A DNA stretch of 53,542 nt. Source: a virus. This document shows positions 33,954 to 47,059 of the stretch, piece by piece; position 1 is the stretch's first letter; every line of letters begins with the position of its first letter. The position numbers and the translations under genes are program-made. The DNA lies in IMG/VR virus record IMGVR_UViG_3300045988_047700, positions 1-53,542 of that record; one strand, 5' to 3'. The notes below the pieces were generated by a model. The model did not search any database. It saw only the letters and a list, made by a program, of their open reading frames with translations, and had not been told where the DNA came from.

Positions 33954-34562
33954 TTACCAAACAGTTCCAGGAACAAACGGCTCTGCTTTCTGTTCACTTC
34001 CACCTTTTTCTGTAGGTGTTGTGAATACAGGTGGTGTCTTACCATCCGTCACGAAAGCATCTTTCTGAGATTCTTTCAGTTCTTTCATGTAATCATCAAG
34101 ACCAAGAATCTTTTCACCCTCACGTTTCAGACCCTTGTCTTTAATCATGTTGATGATTCCTGTTTTGGCAAAATCAGAACTGAATTTCTCGCCCGCAAGA
34201 GCCTTTGTCAGAACATCGTTGAAGTCTCTTTCTTCAATCTTCTGGTTGTACTCTTTTTCACTGGCATCAAGCTTGTCTTTCCATTCTTTTTCCGCATTCT
34301 CAGCTTTTGTCTTCCACTCATCACGTTCTCTTGTGATCGCATCGAAGTCTTTTCCCTCGAACCCGTCCAAAGTCTCTTTCGCTGTTTCATACTGTGTTTT
34401 AAAGTTGTCACGTTCCTGTGTCAGAGTTTCTACTTTTCGTGTCTGCTTATCATAGTCAGATACGCTTTTGTAATTCTCTTTCACTGCATCTTCGATTGTC
34501 TTTTTCTGCTCATCTGTAATTTCAAGACCAGCATCTTTGATAATCTGAATAATATTTTTCAT
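33954..34562 (-). CDS. Scaffolding protein (GP20-like)
   Basis: ATG 34562 after GAGGAGG. Charged coiled coil; MKNIIQIIKDAGLEITDEQKK... Confidence 0.8.
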   Translation of the reverse strand: MKNIIQIIKDAGLEITDEQKKTIEDAVKENYKSVSDYDKQTRKVETLTQERDNFKTQYETAKETLDGFEGKDFDAITRERDEWKTKAENAEKEWKDKLDASEKEYNQKIEERDFNDVLTKALAGEKFSSDFAKTGIINMIKDKGLKREGEKILGLDDYMKELKESQKDAFVTDGKTPPVFTTPTEKGGSEQKAEPFVPGTVW

Positions 34563-34643
34563 GTTGCATATCCTCCTCAACGTCTCTTATTAACCGCTTC
34601 GTCTGCGGTAGGGATTCAGACAGATGAACCTCTGTCGGGGTAA

Positions 34644-34731
34644 TCGGGACACACGGAATCGAACCGTGGACATAAGTCTTTTTTTAAAAGAGATGATTGT
34701 GACTTTTGTTCTACCATTGAACTATATCCCG
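34644..34731 (-). ncRNA. tRNA-like element with an aberrant anticodon region
   Basis: Acceptor CGGGATA / TGTCCCG. D arm GTTC-AATGGTA-GAAC. T arm CACGG-TTCGATT-CCGTG. AAGTC and GACTT are separated by 22 nt instead of a 7-nt loop. No encoded CCA. Confidence 0.5.
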
Positions 34732-35115
34732 TTAGTGGTTGGTGTAAGTGTTCCCTCTATACAGTTCCAACCACTGTTACGGCTATTTGACGGTCAATCT
34801 GCATATTGTTCCGTAACTAACTCTATACAGAAAAAGGATAGCCGGACATAACTCCATGTACTGGTCTGTACACTATCCTTTGCGGAAAGCTGGTGCTTTA
34901 TCATATTATATCTTTATGAGGTAACATAAGATGACGATTCCCCAAGTCCGCAACCTTAGGGGGAAAGCCTAACGGGCGTTTGACCGCCCTTTAATCAGCA
35001 TTCCGCTATTAGGCTTTATTGAAAGGATGTGTATCAAGCAAGAAAAGAAAATGTCCTATGTGATTCACCGTATATATCGTAACATTAATATATATAGTAC
35101 TCCGTACCCATGTTT
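34732..35115 (-). ncRNA. Hairpin-dense non-coding region (candidate large structured RNA)
   Basis: No ORF on either strand. Long-range helices: 34734..34742 with 34767..34775, 34836..34841 with 34873..34878, and 34964..34972 with 35009..35017, the last with a nested GGGCG/CGCCC hairpin. Confidence 0.4.
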
Positions 35116-35538
35116 TTACATTTCCGCAAGCTTCTTGATTTGCCTTTGAATCTCTTTACGTTCTTCTGCAAAATCTGAATCCATCACCATAGATGAAAGC
35201 ATGTCGTACACTTCTACCATAAGTTTCCCGACACTTTCCATCAGTTTGTCTCTGTGCGCTTGATCTCCGTTCTGCTGATACATCTCTTTCGCCATAATGT
35301 ACTGGTCATATAGTGCATCAATGTTTTTATCGTACTTTCCGTTACTGTACTTCTTGATAAGGTTTTCTGATGCATCCGCAATCATCCCTGGTACGCTTTC
35401 ACATTCCAAAGATTTCATATTGCACAATGTAGATGTAATCATGTACATTGCCTGTAAGTTAGACATATTTAAGTCTTTCTTTGCAGATGCTTTTTCACGT
35501 TCAAGCTGTTCTTCCAAAATCTTTTTTATCTCGCTCAT
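35116..35538 (-). CDS. Helical hypothetical protein
   Basis: 140-aa ORF, last gene of the cargo operon. Confidence 0.55.
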   Translation of the reverse strand: MSEIKKILEEQLEREKASAKKDLNMSNLQAMYMITSTLCNMKSLECESVPGMIADASENLIKKYSNGKYDKNIDALYDQYIMAKEMYQQNGDQAHRDKLMESVGKLMVEVYDMLSSMVMDSDFAEERKEIQRQIKKLAEM

Positions 35539-38832: not shown

Positions 38833-39294
38833 TTATTTCTCCACTAACTCAAATCTATACTTCTGCTTCACATCCGGGTGTTTCTTCCTGTCTACTTCGC
38901 TCACAAACATTCCATAAGGTCTGCACCACACGCCATTAGAGCATTCGTAAACTACCTTGAACTGTCCCGGCATTTCGCTATCTTGTGCAATATACAGAAC
39001 TTTCACTGTTTCGCCCTTGAAGTGCCTGCACACCTGTCCGGGTTCAACTCTTCTATTGCTCACTGTCGGCGGTTCGCTGTTGAAATACTTCTCGCATTCT
39101 GCCAAATCACAGTTCTCTCTCATAAGCGGATGCTTTTCATCCAGCTTCTTAATCTCTGCTTTCTGTACGTGAATGTGTTGTCCTACAAGTGGAAATCCAC
39201 AGCCGTAAAGCATTTTTGCCTTAATGTGGTGTGGTTCAAGTCTGCCTGTCGGGTCTATAAGATATCCACTTATTTTAAAAATCTTAGGTATCAT
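38833..39294 (-). CDS. DUF1653-domain protein
   Basis: The C-terminal CRHFKGETVKVLYIAQDSEMPGQFKVVYE...WCRPYGMF matches the DUF1653 pattern. Confidence 0.55.
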   Translation of the reverse strand: MIPKIFKISGYLIDPTGRLEPHHIKAKMLYGCGFPLVGQHIHVQKAEIKKLDEKHPLMRENCDLAECEKYFNSEPPTVSNRRVEPGQVCRHFKGETVKVLYIAQDSEMPGQFKVVYECSNGVWCRPYGMFVSEVDRKKHPDVKQKYRFELVEK

Positions 39295-39298
39295 ATAA

Positions 39299-39925
39299 TC
39301 ACCTCTCCAATCTTATGATCGTGTGAAATTCTTTTTCAGATAAGGCACTTTCAGTCACGAGCCAAAGGCTATCGTCAGCAATATTCCTAGAAGCATATAC
39401 TTTGAATAAAAGTCCAGAAACAATAACATTTTGGCATTTATTTGTCATTGACAAACCATCAAGACTTTTTGTAGGGACAGCAAACGACAGCACATATGTA
39501 CTTTCTGCCCCGGTTAAGAGTTTTTGATAGTCCATGTGTTCAGAAATAATTGTTTCCCCGGTAGAATAAAATTTAATATTCCACCCGATACGGTTTTTTA
39601 GATCAATCATTGCATCTGCCGTCATGTTCGGCGTTTCATCGACTACCGTTTCCTCTGCCGGATACATTTCCCAATCTTCCGCAAGCATATCTTCTTGTGT
39701 TGGTGTCCAGTTTGGCTGAAAGCTTCCTTTTCTTGTGTAACTCATAATGCAGTCCGAGAATTGTTCATCTTCTGGTGGAATCGGAAGAAACGTTTTTGTT
39801 GTTAAACCTTTGTTTCTCCCAATAAAAATAAACTGCCTTTTCCCATTAAAAAAGTTTTCTTTCCATACATTACGTGTAACTTTCTTTCCTTTTTTCATGC
39901 ATTTTATGGCTTCTCCGAAGTTCAT
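39299..39925 (-). CDS. DUF2829 (Tad2-like) domain fused to an unknown C-terminal domain
   Basis: MNFGEAIKCMKKGKKVTRNVW ... NWTPTQEDMLAEDWEMY is the DUF2829 signature. About 115 extra C-terminal residues. Confidence 0.65.
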   Translation of the reverse strand: MNFGEAIKCMKKGKKVTRNVWKENFFNGKRQFIFIGRNKGLTTKTFLPIPPEDEQFSDCIMSYTRKGSFQPNWTPTQEDMLAEDWEMYPAEETVVDETPNMTADAMIDLKNRIGWNIKFYSTGETIISEHMDYQKLLTGAESTYVLSFAVPTKSLDGLSMTNKCQNVIVSGLLFKVYASRNIADDSLWLVTESALSEKEFHTIIRLER

Positions 39926-40487: not shown

Positions 40488-40760
40488 TTACGCTCCATAA
40501 TTCAATCCGATTCCGGCTTGTCTGTATATCTCTTTTCGCATTCTCTCTTTCAGTTCCTCTACATCAATAGTGACTGTCGTGTTTTCTGCAACCTTTACAT
40601 TTCTGTAATCATGAGCCTTTAATACAGGTGATGCCATATCTTCAATAACCGGTGAGGTAAAAGGTGTAAGATACGCTTCTTTCTCCAACCGCTTATTCTT
40701 GCACCTGTCTTTAAACGGACACTCTCTGCACATTTTTGCCATTCTTGTCAATCCACTCAT
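40488..40760 (-). CDS. Hypothetical protein
   Basis: 90 aa with N-terminal CRECPFKDRC. Confidence 0.5.
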   Translation of the reverse strand: MSGLTRMAKMCRECPFKDRCKNKRLEKEAYLTPFTSPVIEDMASPVLKAHDYRNVKVAENTTVTIDVEELKERMRKEIYRQAGIGLNYGA

Positions 40761-41989
40761 TTTACATCACCTTTCGCATTAAGATATCTCTGTGCTGCTT
40801 TTGCTGATTTCACAGCCTGTGACCTATCCCACTGTGCTACCCGTAGCCGTTCCGAATATTCTTTAAGGTCATTTTCTTTGCAGTAATCACGATACTGCTT
40901 ATTCTGCCGTCTGAGTACCGCTGATTTGCGGTCATACATTTGTTGCAATTCGAATTTAAGCTTATCATCTCCGCTTGCATCTATAGCAGTCTGCAAATTC
41001 TGAATCTCTCTCTTGCTGTTGCGAATGCGTCTTTCCATAAGCCGTTGCTTTTTCGCACGCTCTTCTGCCTTGATATTGTCTTCGCTCGACAGGTTAATAT
41101 CCGCATATGGATTGTTTTCACCGTCACCGGATCCGAAAGAGTGTCTGCAGTTCACGCCACACAAACCGGTCACCGTTCCGTAGCCTGTTGATGTTCGGAA
41201 GTCCGGGAACCTCTTGTCTTTGCCTGTCCTGGAATAGAATTTTCCTTGCCACCAAAAGTGGTTCGTTGGATTGTTACCGCCATCGCCAATTCGTGCACCC
41301 ACATGTGCAGATACTAAGATGGTATCCCATTCCAATTCTTCCATTCGTTTTAATGCGATTGCTCCGGCGCACTGGCTTATACCTGTGCGGACAGTCATCA
41401 TTGTGGCTGATTCAATGCTCATTTCTCTACCGGACGGATACGATACTTTAACGCCTTGCCGTATCATCCTTTCAACAGCATTTCTGACAGCTTGTGTGTA
41501 TGATACGGCACCGCTTGATGCCATGCGGTAAGCTGTGTCAACCTCTTTCAAAAACAACTTCTGCGCTTCATCTGCCGTTGTTCGTGTAAGGTTTCTCCAT
41601 TCTCCACACGTATCGTTAAAATCTTTTTCCAGTATTCTTAGCAATGCCGGAGATTGCAATAAGGGCGTAGGTGATAGTCCTACCGCCCTATATATCACAT
41701 CGTCTCTCTCGATAGCTTTTATACCAGCTTCTTCAAATGCGCTTTTAAGCTCTCTCTCTTGCTTTTTTGTTTTGTCAGCAATCTCTTTTTGTATGTCTTC
41801 CAGTAAGTATCCGGATTCTTGCAACACCTGTATCTGCCACCTGTCCGTAGCCGTAAAGAGATAGTCTTCCCCACGACCTATACGCACCATTATGCGATCA
41901 ACGATCATGTCCATGATGTTCTTGTGCATGTCCGATGTTATCTTTTCCGCACCCTCGGTCACATGGAAGAGATATTCAGGCGTCAGCAT
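40757..41989 (-). CDS. Minor capsid / head morphogenesis protein (SPP1 gp7-like)
   Basis: 410 aa. The GYGTVTGLCGVNCRHSF motif is typical of the minor capsid protein 2 family. Confidence 0.7.
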   Translation of the reverse strand: MLTPEYLFHVTEGAEKITSDMHKNIMDMIVDRIMVRIGRGEDYLFTATDRWQIQVLQESGYLLEDIQKEIADKTKKQERELKSAFEEAGIKAIERDDVIYRAVGLSPTPLLQSPALLRILEKDFNDTCGEWRNLTRTTADEAQKLFLKEVDTAYRMASSGAVSYTQAVRNAVERMIRQGVKVSYPSGREMSIESATMMTVRTGISQCAGAIALKRMEELEWDTILVSAHVGARIGDGGNNPTNHFWWQGKFYSRTGKDKRFPDFRTSTGYGTVTGLCGVNCRHSFGSGDGENNPYADINLSSEDNIKAEERAKKQRLMERRIRNSKREIQNLQTAIDASGDDKLKFELQQMYDRKSAVLRRQNKQYRDYCKENDLKEYSERLRVAQWDRSQAVKSAKAAQRYLNAKGDVK

Positions 41990-42074: not shown

Positions 42075-42368
42075 TTATTCATCCTTTCCAATCTGCTTAA
42101 TAATCTGATTGACGTATGTACTAAGTCCGGCTACAAGAATTCCCTGTACAACAGCTGTAAACAATGCCATCGAAATACTCTGCATTCCAGACAAGTCACA
42201 TGTCGCAATCACATATAGACCGCAAATAATAATTCCAACTGCACCGAGAAAAATAGGAATATCATTGTCTTTGATTCTTTTGGAACTTTTCATCCACATT
42301 CCCAAAAAATAAAGTGCAATAGATACTACCACCAGTTCTGGTTTTACGTAATTAATAATCTGTGTCAT
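42075..42368 (-). CDS. Holin (multi-TM, Hol44-like)
   Basis: ATG 42368 after AAGGAGTG. 97 aa with three hydrophobic helices; INYVKPELVVVSIALYFLGMWMK pattern. Confidence 0.6.
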   Translation of the reverse strand: MTQIINYVKPELVVVSIALYFLGMWMKSSKRIKDNDIPIFLGAVGIIICGLYVIATCDLSGMQSISMALFTAVVQGILVAGLSTYVNQIIKQIGKDE

Positions 42369-42633
42369 AATATCACTCCTTTTCTTCATTCTATATTTTT
42401 CTGTTTTCGCAAGCGTCCCCCTGCTCATTCCCACTAGCCTTATAAGTACATTCCATATAGCAGTCTGCATCATTCTACACAATCGTTGTTCCGGCATAAG
42501 TAGTTAATTCTTGGTAGGATTGGATTTCGGATGGTTGTTAAGTCTCGTTCAATTGGCTTGTTCAGGTTATAATATAATACAACTGGATTTCCCGCATCTT
42601 TCTCCATATCTAGTTAACTAAATCTTCCTTTAA

Positions 42634-45591
42634 TTAAGCAAAGTAATTGTCGGACATATTTGAAATATTAATGATCGGCTGTGTCCATATTTTTTCACCA
42701 TCTTCAAATGTAACAATTGATCGCACGTACTTTTCGGTTCCTGTTAATTTATATTTTGCCATTTCCCCTATTATAGTATCTAACAGTTCACCATTTTCTT
42801 TCTTAAAAGAAACAACAGCATTTGCATCTCCTGTTTCAACTATAACTTCACCATTTTCAAACGATATTTTATTTAATTTTTTGTCAGAATTTGTTGTTGC
42901 ATAAAAATTCCCGCAGCAAAGATTTTTCATAATTTCTATTCTTGACAATGTATCACTAAAAACCTTTACACAGCCATTCTTAAAATCATTGGCAACATGC
43001 TGATCAGAAATAGCTATTCCCCATGTAATTACTCCGTTATCCAAAAGAGTTTCCCATGCAAAATCTGTTTCTTTATCATCGGGATGTCTCTCTTCTCCTT
43101 TTGAGTGTATTAATCCGTCATATACTTCGCAAAATCGTAATCCATTATCAACTTCTTTCATCATATTAGATGTATAGTATGTTGAAATATACATAGGGTG
43201 AGCCATTGAAATTATTCCACCAACAGATTTACATATATCTACCATATCTTGAATACTTTTATATTCTGATATTGTAATGTTATCCTGTATGTTATATAAG
43301 CACATATGCTTTATTGGGTGTTTTGCATCGCTTGGAATAGATACTTCAAAGCTATCACATAACCATACAAAATTTTCAGGTAAAGTTATAGGGTGTGTTG
43401 GTTTTCCATTATAATAGTTAATGTGACTATAATCAGTAATAGTCATAAAATCATATCCATTATCCTTATAATACTGGCATAACTGCTCTGGCGTCATATA
43501 TTGAGTTTCCCCGCTACCAGTACCAACTGTATGACAATGCAGTTGTCCTGTCAAAGTAAGATTTCCACTATTTTTATAAGGATTATAACAGCGATATATG
43601 CACCCATCCGTTTCATATGTGTCATTAGGTTTTAAATTTTCGTTTATATTACTGTTTTTAATTTTTTCTATATCCTTGCTGTTTTCTGCAATGTTATCAT
43701 TAATATCGACTATATTTGCATTTACTATTGATAAATTATTTTCAAGTTTTTCAAACCTTTTAAGACCAGCTTTGTATTTCAACGAATAAAGTCCTTTATT
43801 GTATCTATCAATAGATCCAGACACTCTGAAACTTACTTCTTCGGATAAAAAGGTATGTGTTGCTGTTTTAATATCAGAATATCCTGTTGAATTTGCAACA
43901 GTAATCACGTTTCCGTTATTATCATATGTCACGAAAACAGCTCCATCCGATGACAAAGTATACTCAATCATATCACCAGGAATACAAGGAATCTTATTTG
44001 ATGTAGCAATCGCGGATATTGTTTGAACATATGTACCAGTTTCTTTATTCAATTTATAATTTGGGTTTTCCAAGATAATATCTTCTGTTAAAAAAAGTTC
44101 AGATAAAAGAATATAATTTTTCTCTATCCTTTTTGAATTTTCTAAAAAATGATTAGAGTCGCACACTTCATACACTTTTAGGTTCCACTGAACATTTCCA
44201 CTTAATCGTAATGTATTAATGTTGCTTATTGAGGGACTGTACCCATAAAACATATAACCTATAGATGATAAAATCTCAACAGACGATGCTATTGTATCTA
44301 TCATCTTATCAGTTGAATTTGCAGTTCCTGCTTGCACCGTATATATACCGTCAACAGATGGTATGATAAAAAACGCATACTTTTTATTTATATCCAAAGT
44401 TCTTATTGATATATAATAATTATCAATTATATTTCCATCTTCAATATATAAAAGCATACTACGTTGCATTAGTTCTAAGTCTTCCTTTAGTGAACCAATA
44501 TCCTCTTTGTTGGTTGTAATCTGCTCCCGATCGGCTGTGAACTCTTCCGCCACTGCCTGCATCTTACCCAGCTGTTCACTTCCAGCTGTCTGAATGTCTT
44601 TGACTGCTTTCTCACCAGACGCTACAATGTCTGTCTTGAGTTGTGTCCCAGTTTCAATCTTTTCTCCAAGAGAAGTGTCCAATGCACCGGCTTGCTTCAC
44701 AGTCGCACTCAAAGTCTCATTAACCGTTCCTGCTATCTCTATGGATTCATCTAATGCATTCTTGGCAGTTCCTGCTTTCTGTGTGGACGTATCCAACTCT
44801 GTCTTTGCAGTTTCTGCCAACTCCGTAGACTCGTCCAATGCTGTCTTAGTGTCACTAGCAGTCTCAATAGATTGTTCAAGTTCTTCATTGGAAGCACTAG
44901 CATTTTCAATAGTCTGTTCAAGTTCTCCCTTGGAATTCGCAATCTGATTCTGAATCCGTTGGATCTCATTATCGGTATGATTGATAATCTTCCTTACAGA
45001 AGTCTCTTCCTGTTCCCGGATAGCTTCGATTGCTTCTCGCTTTTTCTCTCCGACTTCCTTAAGCGCATCTTCCTTGGTCTTTTCTACTACAGCCGCACTC
45101 TCCGATGCACTAGAAGCATACTTACCGGCTTCTGTCGCACTTGCCTTTGCATTCCGCTCTGCTTTCTCCGCTCGTTCTGCACTGGCATTAACAGCTTCAA
45201 TAGTTTCGTGAAAGATATTCGGTTCTGGCAATGGTCCTTCTGATGGGTTCTCTGGTTTGGTTCGGGACTTTACGTGCAATACAATTTCGTATTCTGTACT
45301 ACCAGAAGTTTCATCTGTTAGATATATGTAGGCGTATATGCAATAATCATATGTGCGTCCATCGTTTTTCAACAGTTCATTTGGAATCTGGACTTCTGTC
45401 GCACCATCCACTGTGGTTCCAATTCTTGTAATCGTACTTCCACTCTTTTCATTCAAAGAGAACTGTATTTCTACAGCTTTAGGGAATTCCACGCCAGTGA
45501 TTCGAAGTATCTGACCGTAGTCATGCTGCCAAAGTCCGGTGAATATTTCTTTGTAAGTCGATTCTAATTTGCATTCAATAATATTGTTCAT
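42634..45591 (-). CDS. Fibre-like protein with a C-terminal PHP phosphoesterase domain
   Basis: 985 aa from ATG 45591 (AGGTGGTG upstream). N-terminal fibre/BppU-like domain, a long Ala/Glu/Thr coiled coil, and PHP motifs HCHT, ITDYSH, AHP and SDQH. Confidence 0.65.
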   Translation of the reverse strand: MNNIIECKLESTYKEIFTGLWQHDYGQILRITGVEFPKAVEIQFSLNEKSGSTITRIGTTVDGATEVQIPNELLKNDGRTYDYCIYAYIYLTDETSGSTEYEIVLHVKSRTKPENPSEGPLPEPNIFHETIEAVNASAERAEKAERNAKASATEAGKYASSASESAAVVEKTKEDALKEVGEKKREAIEAIREQEETSVRKIINHTDNEIQRIQNQIANSKGELEQTIENASASNEELEQSIETASDTKTALDESTELAETAKTELDTSTQKAGTAKNALDESIEIAGTVNETLSATVKQAGALDTSLGEKIETGTQLKTDIVASGEKAVKDIQTAGSEQLGKMQAVAEEFTADREQITTNKEDIGSLKEDLELMQRSMLLYIEDGNIIDNYYISIRTLDINKKYAFFIIPSVDGIYTVQAGTANSTDKMIDTIASSVEILSSIGYMFYGYSPSISNINTLRLSGNVQWNLKVYEVCDSNHFLENSKRIEKNYILLSELFLTEDIILENPNYKLNKETGTYVQTISAIATSNKIPCIPGDMIEYTLSSDGAVFVTYDNNGNVITVANSTGYSDIKTATHTFLSEEVSFRVSGSIDRYNKGLYSLKYKAGLKRFEKLENNLSIVNANIVDINDNIAENSKDIEKIKNSNINENLKPNDTYETDGCIYRCYNPYKNSGNLTLTGQLHCHTVGTGSGETQYMTPEQLCQYYKDNGYDFMTITDYSHINYYNGKPTHPITLPENFVWLCDSFEVSIPSDAKHPIKHMCLYNIQDNITISEYKSIQDMVDICKSVGGIISMAHPMYISTYYTSNMMKEVDNGLRFCEVYDGLIHSKGEERHPDDKETDFAWETLLDNGVITWGIAISDQHVANDFKNGCVKVFSDTLSRIEIMKNLCCGNFYATTNSDKKLNKISFENGEVIVETGDANAVVSFKKENGELLDTIIGEMAKYKLTGTEKYVRSIVTFEDGEKIWTQPIINISNMSDNYFA

Positions 45592-45661
45592 CTTGTCACC
45601 ACCTATTCTGTTACAGTTCCCGTTCCGGCTGTTAGTGTTTTCTGTATTACATCTTTCATTT

Positions 45662-47059
45662 TTACTCCTCCCCGAACAATCCACTGTCTGGTTTGTTTTG
45701 CTCCTGTGCTTCTTTAATCATTGCTTTCGCTTCACTTTCGGTCATGCTCTCAAATTTCACAAAATACATCCACGCCGGAACCTTGCCCTGTAAAACATAG
45801 TTCCACCACCGTGATCGATCATCCTCTAAGTTGTATACAAGGTCTTCAAAATCGCATGCTGTTTGGTAGTTCGTTGCCGGTATAGTTCCGTTTGCTGTGC
45901 CGACAGCATACAGAATATAGATGATTCTGTGTAATATGCCATCATGGTTTTTCCCATCCAGAATGTTGCGAAACGCCTGGATGGTATGCAATGTCCGTCT
46001 ATCATCAGATTCTACTTGCGTTGCTGTCTGTATGCCTTGGTTCTGATCGAAAGAGAAATATCCGTTTGAGAATCCGCATTTATATCCGATGATGGACAGG
46101 TAGAAGTTAATAGCGCTTACTCTATCTGTTACAAGTAGAGTAGGCACATGTTCATGAATGGTATTGTCTTCATTTATCCCTTGTTCCAATCCCCTCACAA
46201 ATCTTGGTAGCTCGATCCCCTGTGCGTTTGCGAATTGTATAGCAGACTGCGATACAAATGTCATGTGTTGACTGTCTTCCTGTTCGTCTCCCATCTTGCT
46301 AAGGGCAATATCCAACCACCTCAATTCTTCGATGCATTCCGAAAACGCCGGAACAGTCAGTGGAGATTCCTTGTCAATCGCATTTGCGTAAGGATTTCGC
46401 CAGTAGACAAACAGTGGATATTCTAACCCATGTACGTACACTTCCGGCTCAATGTCTTTCCACTCATCCACCCTGTCAAGTGTGATCTCTGTACCGAGCA
46501 TATCTTTGTTGTCAGATTTATAGGCCTTGCTGGATATATGGTATACACGTTCCAGTCCGACATCTTCAAATCTGTGGTACTCAGCTTTTGTGTAGTATTT
46601 GTCATTTTTCTTAAGGAAAGAGAAAAAGATAGCTGCTAACGCATCCCCGTCCGTGTTTGTGTCTGTGATTAAAAAGTAATCGGGATCCAAAAATTCCACA
46701 TCATCACCGTTGCTCTTGACCATCATTCCACAGGTCGCACAGCTTTCCTCTTGTTTCTCCTGTAAGGTGTTCATCACTCTGTCAAATCTCTTTTGCAGTT
46801 CATTATTCCCTGTAATCTTGATATCCGTATTAAACAGTGTGAGGTTCGCTATCTCACGACAAATCACGTTTGAAAACCTTGTCGGCTTTATCTTTCCACT
46901 GGTACACCACTTTGGCACACCAGATCTCATGCTTTTATACAGTGACAGGGCGGTATCCATATCAGAAGACCGCCCTGTTTCAATTCCGAATATGTTTTTA
47001 GCGTCATTTACTTTAACCATTTTGTTCCATACCGCCTTAATCTTTTCTATTAGTCTCAT
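45662..47059 (-). CDS. Portal protein (SPP1 gp6-like)
   Basis: 465 aa, immediately downstream of TerL. Confidence 0.8.
   Translation of the reverse strand: MRLIEKIKAVWNKMVKVNDAKNIFGIETGRSSDMDTALSLYKSMRSGVPKWCTSGKIKPTRFSNVICREIANLTLFNTDIKITGNNELQKRFDRVMNTLQEKQEESCATCGMMVKSNGDDVEFLDPDYFLITDTNTDGDALAAIFFSFLKKNDKYYTKAEYHRFEDVGLERVYHISSKAYKSDNKDMLGTEITLDRVDEWKDIEPEVYVHGLEYPLFVYWRNPYANAIDKESPLTVPAFSECIEELRWLDIALSKMGDEQEDSQHMTFVSQSAIQFANAQGIELPRFVRGLEQGINEDNTIHEHVPTLLVTDRVSAINFYLSIIGYKCGFSNGYFSFDQNQGIQTATQVESDDRRTLHTIQAFRNILDGKNHDGILHRIIYILYAVGTANGTIPATNYQTACDFEDLVYNLEDDRSRWWNYVLQGKVPAWMYFVKFESMTESEAKAMIKEAQEQNKPDSGLFGEE

What the first reader, a model, noticed from the sequence alone, without database searches (positions are those of the whole stretch)
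34563..35115. ~550-nt ORF-free, hairpin-dense region ending in a tRNA-like element, inside the structural operon
No ORF exists on either strand between the cargo operon and the scaffold gene.

The minus-strand RNA would contain several long-range helices:
- AAAGCCTAA...TTAGGCTTT, enclosing a GGGCG/CGCCC hairpin.
- GGATAG...CTATCC, enclosing TGTAC/GTACA.
- AGTGGTTGG...CCAACCACT.

An 88-nt element follows, with textbook acceptor, D and T arms (GTTCAATGGTAGAAC; CACGGTTCGATTCCGTG). Its anticodon stem AAGTC/GACTT encloses 22 nt instead of 7, and no standard anticodon loop can be drawn.

The size, the prophage location and the adjacency to a tRNA-like sequence recall the large ornate RNAs ROOL and GOLLD. 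I cannot confirm the consensus from memory.
Basis: partly seen in the sequence, partly recalled or inferred. Interest (0 to 1): 0.65.

Follow-up and report, generated by a model that had tools for sequence, protein, structure and literature searches.

The report
Structured phage leader with tRNA mimic
The gene-free stretch is the folded RNA leader in front of a gut phage's scaffold and capsid genes; it holds a tRNA-shaped element with a ruined anticodon loop but a strictly conserved body, which most likely serves as a cutting signal for the host's tRNA-processing enzymes and is not a ROOL/GOLLD-type giant RNA.

Summary
Window 34563-35115 (minus strand) is non-coding, hairpin-rich, and contains an 88-nt tRNA-like element (34731-34644; Rfam tRNA 50.9 bits, 22-nt anticodon loop, no ARAGORN call). 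It is not ROOL or GOLLD: there is no Rfam hit even at E<=10.

Comparison with about 300 related loci shows a modular 5' leader of the scaffold-capsid operon of uncultured gut Clostridia siphophages:
- A conserved three-helix 5' module preceded by a 16S-tail-like CACCUCCUUUC tract.
- A lineage-specific hairpin insert of about 230 nt.
- A "tRNA slot".
- A conserved two-hairpin 3' module running to the Shine-Dalgarno sequence.

Both modules show strong covariation and are absent from Rfam. In relatives the slot holds ordinary tRNAs (Ile-UAU, Met-CAU, Gln, Lys and others), or tRNA-likes with a deleted, shrunken or expanded anticodon arm, or nothing. The discriminator base lies 1-2 U before the 3' module in 41 of 42 called tRNAs.

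In this lineage the tRNA body is far more conserved (pi 0.005) than synonymous sites (0.085), while the loop is hypervariable.

Best explanation (inferred, confidence about 0.5): a tRNA-derived signal in the same transcript (cis), cut by RNase P and RNase Z like a plant-mitochondrial t-element, that sets the 5' end of the scaffold-capsid mRNA. RNA end mapping is needed.

The parts
35054..35115 (-). AT-rich spacer after the stop codon of the upstream 140-aa gene. It includes an A/U hairpin (35100-35070) and is the most variable part of the region. Relatives carry two alternative versions.
   Evidence: Alignment A1; pi 0.16, 29 of 62 sites variable.
35021..35053 (-). U-rich tract (35053-35033) followed by a 16S-3'-tail-like (anti-Shine-Dalgarno-like) tract. 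It reads ACACAUCCUUUC in the window and ACACCUCCUUUC in 51 of 52 relatives.
   Evidence: RNAalifold pairs UCCUUU with the scaffold SD. The tract is also conserved in distant lineages L128, L136, L154 and L195.
34964..35017 (-). 5' module, a three-helix motif. It has an outer stem (AAAGCCUAA/UUAGGCUUU), a mini-hairpin AGC-GGAAU-GCU, a joining strand GAUUAAA, and an inner hairpin GGGCG-GUCAAA-CGCCC. The unpaired nucleotides are conserved.
   Evidence: Covariation on alignment A5: 93.5% of cells paired, 11 of 15 pairs changed on both sides, 0 of 500 shuffles reach the score, slid registers reach at most 51%. Model R1 hits once in the window, at 34964-35032 with 84 bits, and in 19 of 68 related loci.
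34732..34963 (-). Hairpin-rich insert specific to this lineage. It contains P-b (34962-34940), an A/U hairpin (34935-34900), P-c (34881-34833, with an inner GUGUAC/GUACAU hairpin, followed by UUUUUCUG), two CTGTATAGAG repeats (34830-34821 and 34764-34755), a GUUACGG/CCGUAAC hairpin (34817-34776), and a 9-bp hairpin (34775-34734) that ends 2 nt before the tRNA-like.
   Evidence: Fold z = -2.49. Compensatory changes in P-b and in the inner P-c hairpin. No similarity beyond about q177 in 187 loci of other lineages, nor elsewhere in the window. The 3' half is highly conserved within the lineage, pi 0.007-0.016.
34644..34731 (-). tRNA-derived element of 88 nt. Acceptor stem CGGGAUA/UGUCCCG, U8, D arm GUUC-AAUGGUA-GAAC, anticodon stem AAGUC/GACUU, T arm CACGG-UUCGAUU-CCGUG, discriminator A, no encoded CCA. 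Predicted RNase P cut between 34732 and 34731. Predicted RNase Z cut between 34644 and 34643.
   Evidence: Rfam RF00005 at 50.9 bits. No ARAGORN call. Body 2 of 66 sites variable, pi 0.005.
34679..34700 (-). Expanded 'anticodon' loop ACAAUCAUCUCUUUUAAAAAAA (22 nt). There is no U33/anticodon frame. It is hypervariable: 14 alleles of 21-27 nt among 46 close relatives.
34567..34643 (-). 3' module. UUACCCCG, hairpin 1 (GACAGA-GGUUCA-UCUGUC, 34636-34619), UGAAUCCCUA, hairpin 2 (CCGC-AGACGAA-GCGG, 34608-34594), an A-rich linker, and the SD GGAGGA (34576-34571). The scaffold ATG is at 34562.
   Evidence: Covariation on alignment A4: 90.5% of cells paired, 6 pairs changed on both sides, 0 of 500 shuffles reach the score, slid registers reach at most 47%. 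Model R2 hits once in the window with 91 bits and in 49 of 68 related loci, always abutting the scaffold start.
33954..34562 (-). Scaffolding protein gene (PF06810), the first gene served by the leader. The major capsid gene follows at 33885-33034.

Best explanation
Window 34563-35115 (minus strand) is the non-coding, structured 5' leader of the scaffold-major-capsid operon of an uncultured siphophage of gut Clostridia.

It is built from modules:
- A family-wide 5' module: a 16S-tail-like CACCUCCUUUC tract plus a three-helix motif.
- A lineage-specific hairpin insert.
- A 'tRNA slot'.
- A family-wide two-hairpin 3' module that runs into the Shine-Dalgarno sequence.

The 88-nt element in the slot descends from a phage tRNA. 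Its loop still contains CUUUUAA, the Lys-UUU loop seen in a sister allele. Its anticodon loop has expanded to 21-27 nt, so it can no longer decode. It keeps everything that RNase P, RNase Z and the CCA-adding enzyme recognise: acceptor stem, T arm, D-loop GG and a U-rich, CCA-less trailer.

Proposed mechanism:
1. The long late transcript is cut by RNase P at the 5' end of the element (between 34732 and 34731).
2. RNase Z cuts after the discriminator (between 34644 and 34643).
3. This detaches the upstream accessory-gene mRNA, which is left ending in the 9-bp hairpin 34775-34734. It also detaches the anti-SD-like tract.
4. The scaffold-capsid mRNA then starts at UUACCCCG, directly before two protective hairpins, with a free SD.

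The element therefore acts like a plant-mitochondrial t-element, a punctuation mark in the transcript.

Shown here: non-coding status, purifying selection, covariation of the modules, the slot architecture, and the fixed tRNA-leader junction. Inferred: transcription through the region, the two cleavages, and their effect on mRNA stability and translation.
For: 1. tRNA model hit of 50.9 bits with a 23-nt loop insertion. The tertiary-contact nucleotides U8, A14, G18G19 and the UUCGAUU T loop can be read directly.
2. Slot architecture. A T loop lies 97-108 nt before the scaffold ATG in most of 70 unique upstream regions. ARAGORN calls ordinary tRNAs there in relatives: Ile-UAU, Lys-UUU, Gln-UUG, Thr, Gly, Ser and Sup-UUA. 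In a metagenome sample of 118 loci, 48 hold called tRNAs, 33 hold uncalled T-loop-bearing tRNA-likes, and 37 hold none.
3. Fixed junction. The gap between the discriminator and ACCYYG is U or UU in 41 of 42 called tRNAs, and R2 model hits begin at the tRNA 3' end. A CCA-less trailer starting with U is what RNase Z substrates look like in Bacillus, where RNase P acts first on long 5' leaders (PMC1874595).
4. At least 10 independent tRNA-like types have lesions only in the anticodon or D region while keeping the acceptor stem and T arm. These include 22-23-nt, 16-nt, 14-nt and 5-nt loops, arm deletions, and 40-44-nt acceptor+T-arm minihelices.
5. These aberrant classes still evolve by compensatory change. 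The acceptor stem is GCCUUUG/CAAAGGC in one and GCCUUCG/CGAAGGC in another (L151 vs L353). The T stem is GCAGG/CCUGC in one and GCGAG/CUCGC in another (L355 vs L259). In the window lineage, pair 6:67 alternates U.G and U-A.
6. Selection. The tRNA body has pi 0.005 (2 of 66 sites variable), against 0.085 (36% variable) at third codon positions of the adjacent scaffold gene, while the loop has 14 length and sequence alleles.
7. Both flanking modules are supported by covariation and occur only here in the 53.5-kb window.
Against: - There is no transcript data.
- Some relatives have the same 3' module with no tRNA-like at all (L128-131, L145, L148, and 37 of 118 metagenome loci). A tRNA-shaped signal is therefore not obligatory for the leader to work.
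- Detection of tRNA-likes relied on an intact T loop, so elements with a decayed T arm would have been scored as 'none' (ascertainment bias). The 'none' cases I read looked like unrelated hairpins rather than tRNA remnants.
- Sister alleles B and C in the same lineage have two acceptor-stem mismatches, which is not ideal for RNase P.
- A stable hairpin 2 nt upstream of the predicted RNase P site is unusual for pre-tRNA leaders.
Confidence: 0.5

Rival explanations
1. Dead tRNA. The element is a recently inactivated phage tRNA pseudogene (a slippage insertion in the anticodon loop of a tRNA-Lys-like gene). It has no function of its own and merely sits inside a functional leader.
For: - The loop still contains CUUUUAA, and a sister allele in the same slot is called tRNA-Lys(UUU).
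- The loop changes are typical slippage products: A-run length changes and AUC(C/A) duplications.
- All type-A carriers are close relatives (90-96% identity), so little time has passed.
- Leaders without any tRNA exist.
Against: - The body is about 17-fold less diverse than synonymous sites of the adjacent gene in the same genomes, and is the most conserved stretch of the whole region.
- Anticodon-arm-only lesions recur in at least 10 independent lineages.
- Compensatory changes keep the acceptor and T stems within aberrant classes.
Confidence: 0.15
2. Trans-acting tRNA mimic. After excision the big-loop RNA is a stable product that works in trans. It could be a decoy or sponge for a tRNA-targeting host defence (an anticodon nuclease of the PrrC, RloC or PARIS type), or an antisense regulator whose loop pairs with ribosome-binding regions, as in the RNase P-processed C4 RNA of phage P1.
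For: - The region lies next to an accessory island that encodes a Tad2-like anti-Thoeris protein. Relatives carry Tad2-like and Acb2/Tad1 genes nearby.
- Two unrelated alleles (A and B) both have loops of about 22 nt. Several big loops are pyrimidine-rich and resemble the anti-SD: B has UUUCCUCUUUCG, and L151/L353 have GUUUCCUUCCUUGA.
- Loop B and the L151/L353 loops pair with their own SD region better than 96-99% of random genome windows.
- Phage tRNAs with altered anticodon loops are proposed to evade anticodon nucleases (PMC10264068, found).
Against: - The window's own loop (type A) is not more complementary to its RBS region than chance: p = 0.53 against genome windows and 177 of 1000 against shuffles.
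- Single changes in the putative target site are not compensated (L019, L056).
- Other lineages keep only an acceptor+T-arm minihelix with no loop at all, which fits a cis signal better than a decoy for an anticodon nuclease.
- Loop hypervariability looks like slippage, not a targeted arms race.
Confidence: 0.12
3. DNA-level element. The conserved sequences are promoter, operator or other protein-binding DNA for late transcription, not RNA structure.
For: - Part of the lineage-specific insert (34732-34830) is highly conserved without informative covariation.
- It contains a 10-nt direct repeat, CTGTATAGAG twice, 66 nt apart.
Against: - Many compensatory base-pair changes in five helices argue for RNA-level selection.
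- The sigma-70-type scan finds nothing convincing: 2 sites against 4.9 expected.
- The repeat is not enriched elsewhere in the window.
Confidence: 0.06
4. Working decoder. The element is a functional tRNA with an expanded anticodon loop or a short intron that is removed before use.
For: - The Rfam score is well above threshold.
- ARAGORN in intron mode can draw a tRNA-Met(CAU) with a 5-nt intron.
Against: - No 7-nt loop with U33 can be drawn.
- The ARAGORN solution needs a stem (AAAAG/CUUUU) that is broken in most relatives, which have CUUUG or CUUUA.
- Bacteria have no splicing system for 5-15-nt tRNA introns (established knowledge).
- Loop length varies between 21 and 27 nt.
- There is no group I intron signal.
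Confidence: 0.03
5. ROOL/GOLLD-like large ornate RNA. The whole stretch of about 550 nt is one large structured RNA of that kind.
For: The size, the phage context and the adjacency to a tRNA-like sequence resemble what is described for ROOL and GOLLD (PMC5737381).
Against: - No ROOL or GOLLD hit at the gathering threshold or at E<=10.
- Relatives have the two end modules directly adjacent with nothing in between (L128, L145).
- The middle 207 nt are confined to one lineage.
Confidence: 0.01

Closest known systems
t-elements of plant mitochondria (tRNA-like structures that mark mRNA ends; Forner et al. 2007, PMC1920247)
   Same: - tRNA-shaped sequences embedded in mRNAs that keep the acceptor/T-arm part but cannot decode.
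- They lie directly at the borders of protein-coding transcripts.
- They are proposed or shown to be cut by RNase P and RNase Z, which creates mRNA 5' and 3' ends.
   Different: - Here the setting is a bacteriophage late operon in Firmicutes.
- Cleavage has not been shown.
- The slot is interchangeable with real tRNAs and is coupled to a conserved two-hairpin leader.
- I found no description of such elements in phages, within a limited library.
Co-transcribed tRNA-mRNA units (E. coli thrU-tyrU-glyT-thrT-tufB operon) and MALAT1/mascRNA
   Same: A tRNA or tRNA-like lies in the same transcript as an mRNA or long RNA, and RNase P/Z processing defines the end of the partner RNA. This rests on established knowledge and was not tested here.
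   Different: In the tufB operon the tRNAs are fully functional. mascRNA is eukaryotic. Here decoding capacity has been lost repeatedly while the processing determinants remain.
Phage-encoded tRNAs (codon supplementation or evasion of anticodon nucleases; van den Berg et al. 2023, PMC10264068)
   Same: Relatives carry ordinary tRNAs for A/U-ending codons in the same slot (Ile-UAU, Lys-UUU, Gln-UUG and others). The window's element clearly descends from such a gene.
   Different: The window's element cannot decode: it has a 22-nt loop. ARAGORN rejects it.
C4 RNA of phages P1/P7 and CI RNA of P4 (RNase P-processed antisense RNAs acting on an RBS in the same transcript)
   Same: A small structured RNA encoded upstream in the same operon, released by RNase P. 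Its loops are complementary to a downstream ribosome-binding region. This rests on established knowledge.
   Different: Loop-to-RBS complementarity is not significant for the window's allele. It is suggestive only for allele B and for L151/L353.
ROOL (RF03087) and GOLLD (RF01998)
   Same: Large non-coding regions in prophages, often next to tRNAs (PMC5737381).
   Different: No sequence or structure match. The window's region is modular and mostly lineage-specific in its middle.

Membership tests
ROOL (RF03087) / GOLLD (RF01998) | Match to the family covariance model | tested here: not met
   cmscan over the whole window at gathering score and over 34300-35400 at E<=10 with permissive filters. 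Neither family is listed.
tRNA (RF00005), as a fold | Cloverleaf scoring above the Rfam gathering score, with conserved tertiary nucleotides (U8, A14, G18G19, T loop UUCRAUU, G53-C61) | tested here: met
   50.9 bits against a gathering score of 29, model positions 1-71 of 71. The tertiary nucleotides were read directly.
tRNA, as a decoding adaptor | Seven-nucleotide anticodon loop with U33 and a defined anticodon | tested here: not met
   22-nt loop (21-27 nt in relatives). ARAGORN in default mode makes no call.
tRNA, as a decoding adaptor | Aminoacylation and CCA addition | not testable with these tools
   No CCA is encoded (A73 is followed by UUA). Testing needs tRNA-seq or charging assays.
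tRNA with group I intron / tmRNA | Intron_gpI or tmRNA model match, or an ARAGORN tmRNA call | tested here: not met
   No such hits at E<=10. ARAGORN -m finds nothing. The extra sequence is only about 15 nt.
t-element-like processing signal | Acceptor stem plus T arm retained while the anticodon arm is dispensable, located at an mRNA border | tested here: met
   At least 10 independent aberrant types keep the acceptor stem and T arm. The 3' end lies 1-2 nt from the conserved leader in 41 of 42 called tRNAs.
t-element-like processing signal | Cleavage by RNase P and RNase Z that generates the mRNA ends | not testable with these tools
Testing needs RACE, dRNA-seq or in vitro cleavage.
C4/CI-type cis-encoded antisense RNA | Loop complementary to the downstream RBS region beyond chance, with co-variation of loop and target | tested here: inconclusive
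   Type A: -5.9 to -8.1 kcal/mol, p = 0.53 and 0.18. Type B: -14.1 kcal/mol, p = 0.013. L151/L353: p = 0.02-0.04. Target-site changes in L019 and L056 are not compensated.
Protein-coding or decayed coding sequence | A conserved reading frame, or similarity to proteins | tested here: not met
   Only ORFs of 33-75 aa, crossed by indels that are not multiples of three in relatives. Compensatory RNA pairs are present and diversity is lower than at synonymous sites.

The most novel reading that the evidence does not exclude
Excision of the tRNA mimic is a built-in post-transcriptional switch, in two parts.

1. In the unprocessed transcript the 16S-tail-like tract CACCUCCUUUC of the 5' module masks the scaffold Shine-Dalgarno sequence. 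RNase P/Z cutting at the tRNA-shaped element severs the two, which licenses high-level scaffold and capsid translation from an mRNA capped by the two-hairpin module.
2. The released anticodon-disabled tRNA mimic persists as a stable RNA with a function of its own in trans, for example as a decoy for tRNA-targeting defences.

Together with the two undescribed conserved motifs, this would define a new class of phage regulatory RNA that is widespread in gut Clostridia phages.
Probability: 0.15. Interest if true: 0.85.

Novelty: new variant of a known kind. Interest (0 to 1): 0.66.

Why it matters
- If the tRNA-shaped elements are processing signals, phages use the host's tRNA maturation enzymes to punctuate their late mRNAs. 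That principle is known from organelles, and I found no report of it for phages.
- It would explain why many phage "tRNA genes" look defective to tRNA finders yet persist.
- It warns against counting such elements as decoding tRNAs in codon-usage studies.
- The two flanking motifs are covariation-supported RNA structures missing from Rfam 15. They occur in front of the scaffold gene in hundreds of human and animal gut phage contigs. This gives a tractable entry point into how capsid-protein stoichiometry is set after transcription in uncultured Clostridia phages.
- The leader could also serve as a compact part for controlling expression in Firmicutes.

Tried and rejected
- ROOL, GOLLD, group I intron, tmRNA, Y RNA and other Rfam families: no hit at E<=10.
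- ARAGORN relaxed and intron modes: only an implausible 5-nt-intron tRNA-Met. A low-threshold run also produced a spurious 196-nt-intron call on the opposite strand.
- Anticodon loop pairing with the scaffold RBS (suggested by inverted repeat I6): not better than shuffles or random genome windows for the window's allele.
- Sigma-70 promoters and intrinsic terminators inside the region: 2 promoter-like sites against 4.9 expected, and 0 terminators. The P-c hairpin plus U-run is terminator-like only loosely.
- The CTGTATAGAG repeat as a genome-wide regulatory site: no other exact copy in the window.
- Homologues of the middle 207 nt: none by blastn or nhmmer in 187 loci (1.1 Mb) of other lineages, nor in the rest of the window.
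- Donor of allele B elsewhere in IMG/VR: only the same four contigs.
- Cultured or annotated phages: no DNA match to the region. The nearest scaffold homologues are unannotated faecal contigs at 32-42% identity and C. difficile phages at about 30%. The 3' module is found only in two metagenome-derived records.
- Hammerhead-like reading of the 5' module (CUGAUUAAA ... GUC): rejected by eye because the core CUGANGA/GAAA is not present.
- A pseudoknot between the hairpin-1 loop (GGUU) and AAUCC: the columns are invariant and the second leader family pairs in a different register, so this is unresolved.
- Literature searches: no description of tRNA-like elements upstream of phage scaffold genes.
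Full report
**1. Observation**

Genes in this part of the window run on the minus strand. The upstream 140-aa gene ends at 35116, and the scaffolding gene (PF06810 / phrog_194) starts at ATG 34562. The 553 nt between them contain only short mechanical ORFs: 33 and 36 aa on the minus strand, 40 and 75 aa on the plus strand.

The minus-strand RNA folds better than all 100 dinucleotide shuffles (z = -3.63).

Rfam's tRNA model matches 34731-34644 (minus strand) at 50.9 bits (gathering score 29), with 23 nt inserted in the anticodon loop. ARAGORN finds no tRNA or tmRNA. In intron mode it only offers a tRNA-Met with a 5-nt intron, whose stem is not conserved in relatives. No ROOL, GOLLD, group I intron or any other family appears even at E<=10.

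**2. Context**

The window is a siphophage-type genome or prophage of about 40% GC. It encodes a large terminase, a portal-sized gene, a 1016-aa protein, a holin, minor capsid protein 2 (40757-41989), then about 5.6 kb of small genes, then this region, then scaffold, major capsid and head-tail adaptor. The small genes include a protein with a Tad2-like anti-Thoeris domain (39299-39925).

There is no close cultured relative. The nearest annotated scaffold genes are in C. difficile phages at about 30% identity. Distant homologues lie in Lachnospiraceae, Oscillospiraceae, Faecousia, Ruminococcus and Agathobacter MAGs. Close relatives are IMG/VR contigs and human-gut metagenome contigs.

**3. The region is under selection as RNA**

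- Seventy IMG/VR relatives carry the region at 90-96% identity. Fifty-two unique versions were aligned (A1).
- Among the 46 unique type-A versions, nucleotide diversity is 0.16 in the AT-rich spacer. It is only 0.02 in the 5' module, 0.005 in the tRNA-like body (2 of 66 sites variable) and 0.011 in the last 81 nt.
- Third codon positions of the adjacent scaffold gene in these relatives (64 sequences, 42 unique) have pi 0.085, with 36% of sites variable.
- RNAalifold finds compensatory changes in the outer stem AAAGCC/GGCUUU (G-C to A-U in 5 sequences, G.U in 2), in P-b, in the inner P-c hairpin (C-G to U-A in 6), in the T arm and in both 3' hairpins.
- Indels that are not multiples of three cross every small ORF.
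- The region is therefore neither coding nor a decaying gene.

**4. Modular anatomy**

Scaffold homologues at 30-88% identity were traced to contigs.

3' module:
- In nearly all of them, the roughly 80 nt before the scaffold ATG read (U)UACCCCG, hairpin 1, U.AAUCC.UUA, hairpin 2, an A-rich linker, then AGGAGGAU.
- On 20 diverse sequences the two hairpins are 90.5% paired, with six pairs changed on both sides. No shuffle reaches the covariation score (0 of 500), and slid registers reach at most 47%.
- A covariance model (R2) finds it once in the window (34567-34644, 91 bits).
- R2 finds it once in 49 of 68 related loci, always abutting the scaffold start.
- A second, related two-hairpin leader type exists in another branch (L143, L156-L169).

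5' module:
- A subset of lineages also shares a 5' module. It starts with a U-rich tract and the dodecamer ACACCUCCUUUC. Eleven of its bases equal the 3' tail of Firmicute 16S rRNA (my knowledge of the rRNA sequence). The window itself has one substitution, giving CACAUCC.
- A three-helix motif follows: an outer stem, a mini-hairpin AGN-GGAAN-NCU, the strand CUGNUAAA, and an inner hairpin with loop GUCNNA.
- This motif is 93.5% paired, with 11 of 15 pairs changed on both sides (0 of 500 shuffles; slid registers at most 51%).
- Model R1 hits once in the window (34964-35032, 84 bits) and in 19 of 68 loci.

Arrangement:
- In L128-131 and L145 the two modules are directly adjacent.
- In the window they are separated by a 232-nt hairpin-rich insert plus the 88-nt tRNA-like.
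- Of that insert, about 207 nt (q178-384, window 34938-34732) have no detectable relative in 187 loci of other lineages or elsewhere in the window.
- The inserted block is flanked by UUUCCCC (34966-34960) and UUACCCC (34643-34637), where L128 has a single UUUACCCC. This looks like an insertion into that site, but that is my inference only.

**5. The tRNA slot**

- A T-loop motif lies 97-108 nt upstream of the scaffold ATG in most of 70 unique upstream regions.
- ARAGORN calls ordinary tRNAs there in many relatives: Ile-UAU (L136-138, L179, L205 and others), Lys-UUU (L065-67, L150), Gln-UUG, Thr-UGU/CGU, Gly-UCC, Ser-GCU and a UUA suppressor.
Of 118 usable loci, 48 have a called tRNA abutting the leader (15 Met-CAU, 15 Ile-UAU, 11 Gln-UUG, and others), 33 have a T-loop-bearing element that ARAGORN rejects, and 37 have none.
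- The distance from the discriminator base to ACCYYG is one or two U in 41 of 42 called tRNAs. The tRNA 3' end and the start of the leader are therefore locked together. In all 42 of these the discriminator is followed by U rather than CCA. Some prophages in MAGs (L149-L152) encode CCA.

**6. The rejected elements are tRNAs damaged only in the middle**

Types seen:
- The window's type A: 21-27-nt loop, 14 alleles.
- Type B in four sister contigs: unrelated 6-bp stem, 23-nt loop.
- L330: 16-nt loop. L151 and L353: 14-nt loop on a palindromic stem. L329: 5-nt loop.
- L154 and L153: anticodon arm replaced by a 10-14-nt linker.
- L213 and L318: Ile tRNA with deletions in the anticodon stem.
- Two different acceptor+T-arm minihelices of 40-44 nt: the L132/L195 group and the L271/L345 group.
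- L355 and L259: about 115 nt, with two extra hairpins.

 Rfam still scores several of them at 35-55 bits.

Within aberrant classes the remaining stems change by compensation:
- Acceptor stem GCCUUUG/CAAAGGC vs GCCUUCG/CGAAGGC (L151 vs L353).
- T stem GCAGG/CCUGC vs GCGAG/CUCGC (L355 vs L259).
- One-sided G.U/A-U changes in the minihelices and at pair 6:67 of the window type.

Type C in three sister contigs is called tRNA-Lys(UUU). It has a 6-bp anticodon stem, supported by an A-U to G-C change in L067. Like type B, it has two acceptor-stem mismatches, because all three alleles share an identical 5' half up to position 25. Types B and C therefore look like recombinants that break inside the tRNA.

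**7. Proposed mechanism**

What is kept in every variant is what RNase P, RNase Z and the CCA-adding enzyme read: the acceptor/T-arm stack, the T loop, usually the D-loop GG, and a U-starting, CCA-less trailer. What is lost is what the ribosome reads. The junction to the leader is fixed.

In Bacillus, CCA-less precursors are cut by RNase Z directly after the discriminator. RNase P acts first when the 5' leader is long, and it can cut CCA-less precursors (PMC1874595).

I therefore propose that the element is a punctuation mark in the same transcript (cis):
- RNase P cuts between 34732 and 34731. The upstream accessory-gene RNA is left ending in the 9-bp hairpin 34775-34734.
- RNase Z cuts between 34644 and 34643. 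The scaffold-capsid mRNA is left starting at UUACCCCG, a few nucleotides before two stable hairpins. A 5'-proximal structure of this kind is known to protect Firmicute mRNAs from 5'-exonucleolytic decay (established knowledge, not tested here).
- The cuts would also sever the 16S-tail-like tract from the SD. RNAalifold pairs that tract with the SD, but the pairing cannot be tested by covariation because the SD never varies.

All of these steps are inferred. No transcript data could be used.

**8. Rival explanations**

- A neutral pseudogene is disfavoured by the diversity contrast, by the recurrence of anticodon-only lesions, and by compensatory changes in aberrant classes. It is not excluded for this young lineage.
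- A trans-acting role (decoy for tRNA-targeting defence, or a C4-like antisense RNA) is attractive. The anti-defence island is adjacent, and loops B and L151/L353 are anti-SD-like and pair with their SD regions (p = 0.013-0.04). But the window's own loop does not (p = 0.53; 177 of 1000 shuffles), and the minihelix types have no loop at all.
- DNA-level function is possible for the invariant stretch 34732-34830 with its CTGTATAGAG repeats. It cannot explain the covarying helices.
- A working decoder and a ROOL/GOLLD member are rejected.

**9. Comparison with what is known**

The closest analogue by mechanism is the t-element of plant mitochondria (PMC1920247). Others are co-transcribed tRNA-mRNA operons and MALAT1/mascRNA. 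By descent the element is a phage tRNA.

I found no report of anticodon-disabled tRNA-likes locked to a conserved leader in phage head operons. The searchable library is limited, so this is not proof of novelty. Neither flanking motif is in Rfam 15.

The slot region also attracts other non-coding cargo. A skipping-rope RNA lies between the 5' module and the tRNA-like in L154, at the family threshold. A RAGATH-21 RNA lies about 350 nt upstream of the slot in L208.

**10. Verdict**

The ROOL/GOLLD reading is wrong, but the claim of a structured, functional RNA with a tRNA-like element is right. The best-supported reading is a modular capsid-operon leader with a tRNA-derived processing signal. 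That makes it a new variant of a known principle, with two apparently undescribed conserved RNA motifs attached. The mechanism remains untested.

Noticed in passing
window 39299-39925 (-), also 38833-39294 (-): A 208-aa protein with an N-terminal Tad2-like (Thoeris anti-defence 2) domain (PF11195, E = 1.8e-18), followed by a DUF1653 protein. The roughly 5.6 kb of small genes between minor capsid protein 2 and the leader look like an accessory or anti-defence island. In relatives, Tad2-like, Acb2/Tad1-hairpin, LemA and DUF6275 genes sit upstream of the minor capsid gene instead.
   Followed up: partly
window 42075-42497 (-): A Hol44-family holin gene (PF16079, E = 6e-25) lies inside the head-morphogenesis block, between the 1016-aa gene and minor capsid protein 2. 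This is an unusual place for a lysis gene.
   Followed up: no
window 42634-45684 (-): A 1016-aa ORF directly after the portal-sized gene has no Pfam match at E<=0.001.
   Followed up: no
L154 2248-2325; L208 684-757: Other Rfam non-coding RNAs in or near the same leader region of relatives. A skipping-rope RNA (RF02924, 36.8 bits, right at threshold) lies between the 5' module and the tRNA-like in an Agathobacter MAG. A RAGATH-21 RNA (RF03097, 84.6 bits) lies about 350 nt upstream of the slot tRNA in an IMG/VR contig.
   Followed up: no
L355 and L259 (metagenome contigs), about 125 nt before the 3' module: A tRNA-like of about 115 nt whose anticodon arm is replaced by two hairpins. One has a conserved 7-nt loop UGCAAAU on a covarying stem (GAAG/CUUC vs GGAG/CUCC). 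The T stem also covaries. It may be a distinct structured RNA class with a tRNA-like domain.
   Followed up: partly
L147 2318-2389 (Lachnospiraceae MAG); L208, L276, L325: In L147 the slot tRNA has anticodon UUA, which ARAGORN calls a stop (ochre) suppressor. In L208, L276 and L325 the tRNA-Gln(UUG) is 89-90 nt long with a variable region of about 20 nt, which is unusual for tRNA-Gln.
   Followed up: no
L336, L343, and L145 upstream of its 5' module: A different conserved module can precede the same 3' leader: ACCUCCUU.., CACACG, UCCUUAA.AGAAACGG-hairpin, GGAGGUUGAAAAGCGG-hairpin, CGUGUG. It contains both an anti-SD-like and an SD-like tract.
   Followed up: no
L143, L156-L169 (IMG/VR and a Lachnospiraceae MAG): A second leader family in front of scaffold genes at about 50% identity: UUGCC, AGCUAU-GGAGUAA-AUAGC, AACUCAAUCGUG, CCGG-ACUGA-CCGG, and so on. 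It has the same two-hairpin plan and again sometimes a tRNA or tRNA-like upstream, for example a 72-74-nt 'tRNA-Ser(GCU)' that lacks the long variable arm.
   Followed up: partly
L065-L067 versus window, breakpoint at tRNA position 25 (window about 34707): Homology between sub-lineages breaks exactly after the D arm of the tRNA-like. The identical 5' half is joined to three different 3' parts, two of which leave acceptor-stem mismatches. This suggests that the tRNA sequence is a recombination hot spot between phages.
   Followed up: partly
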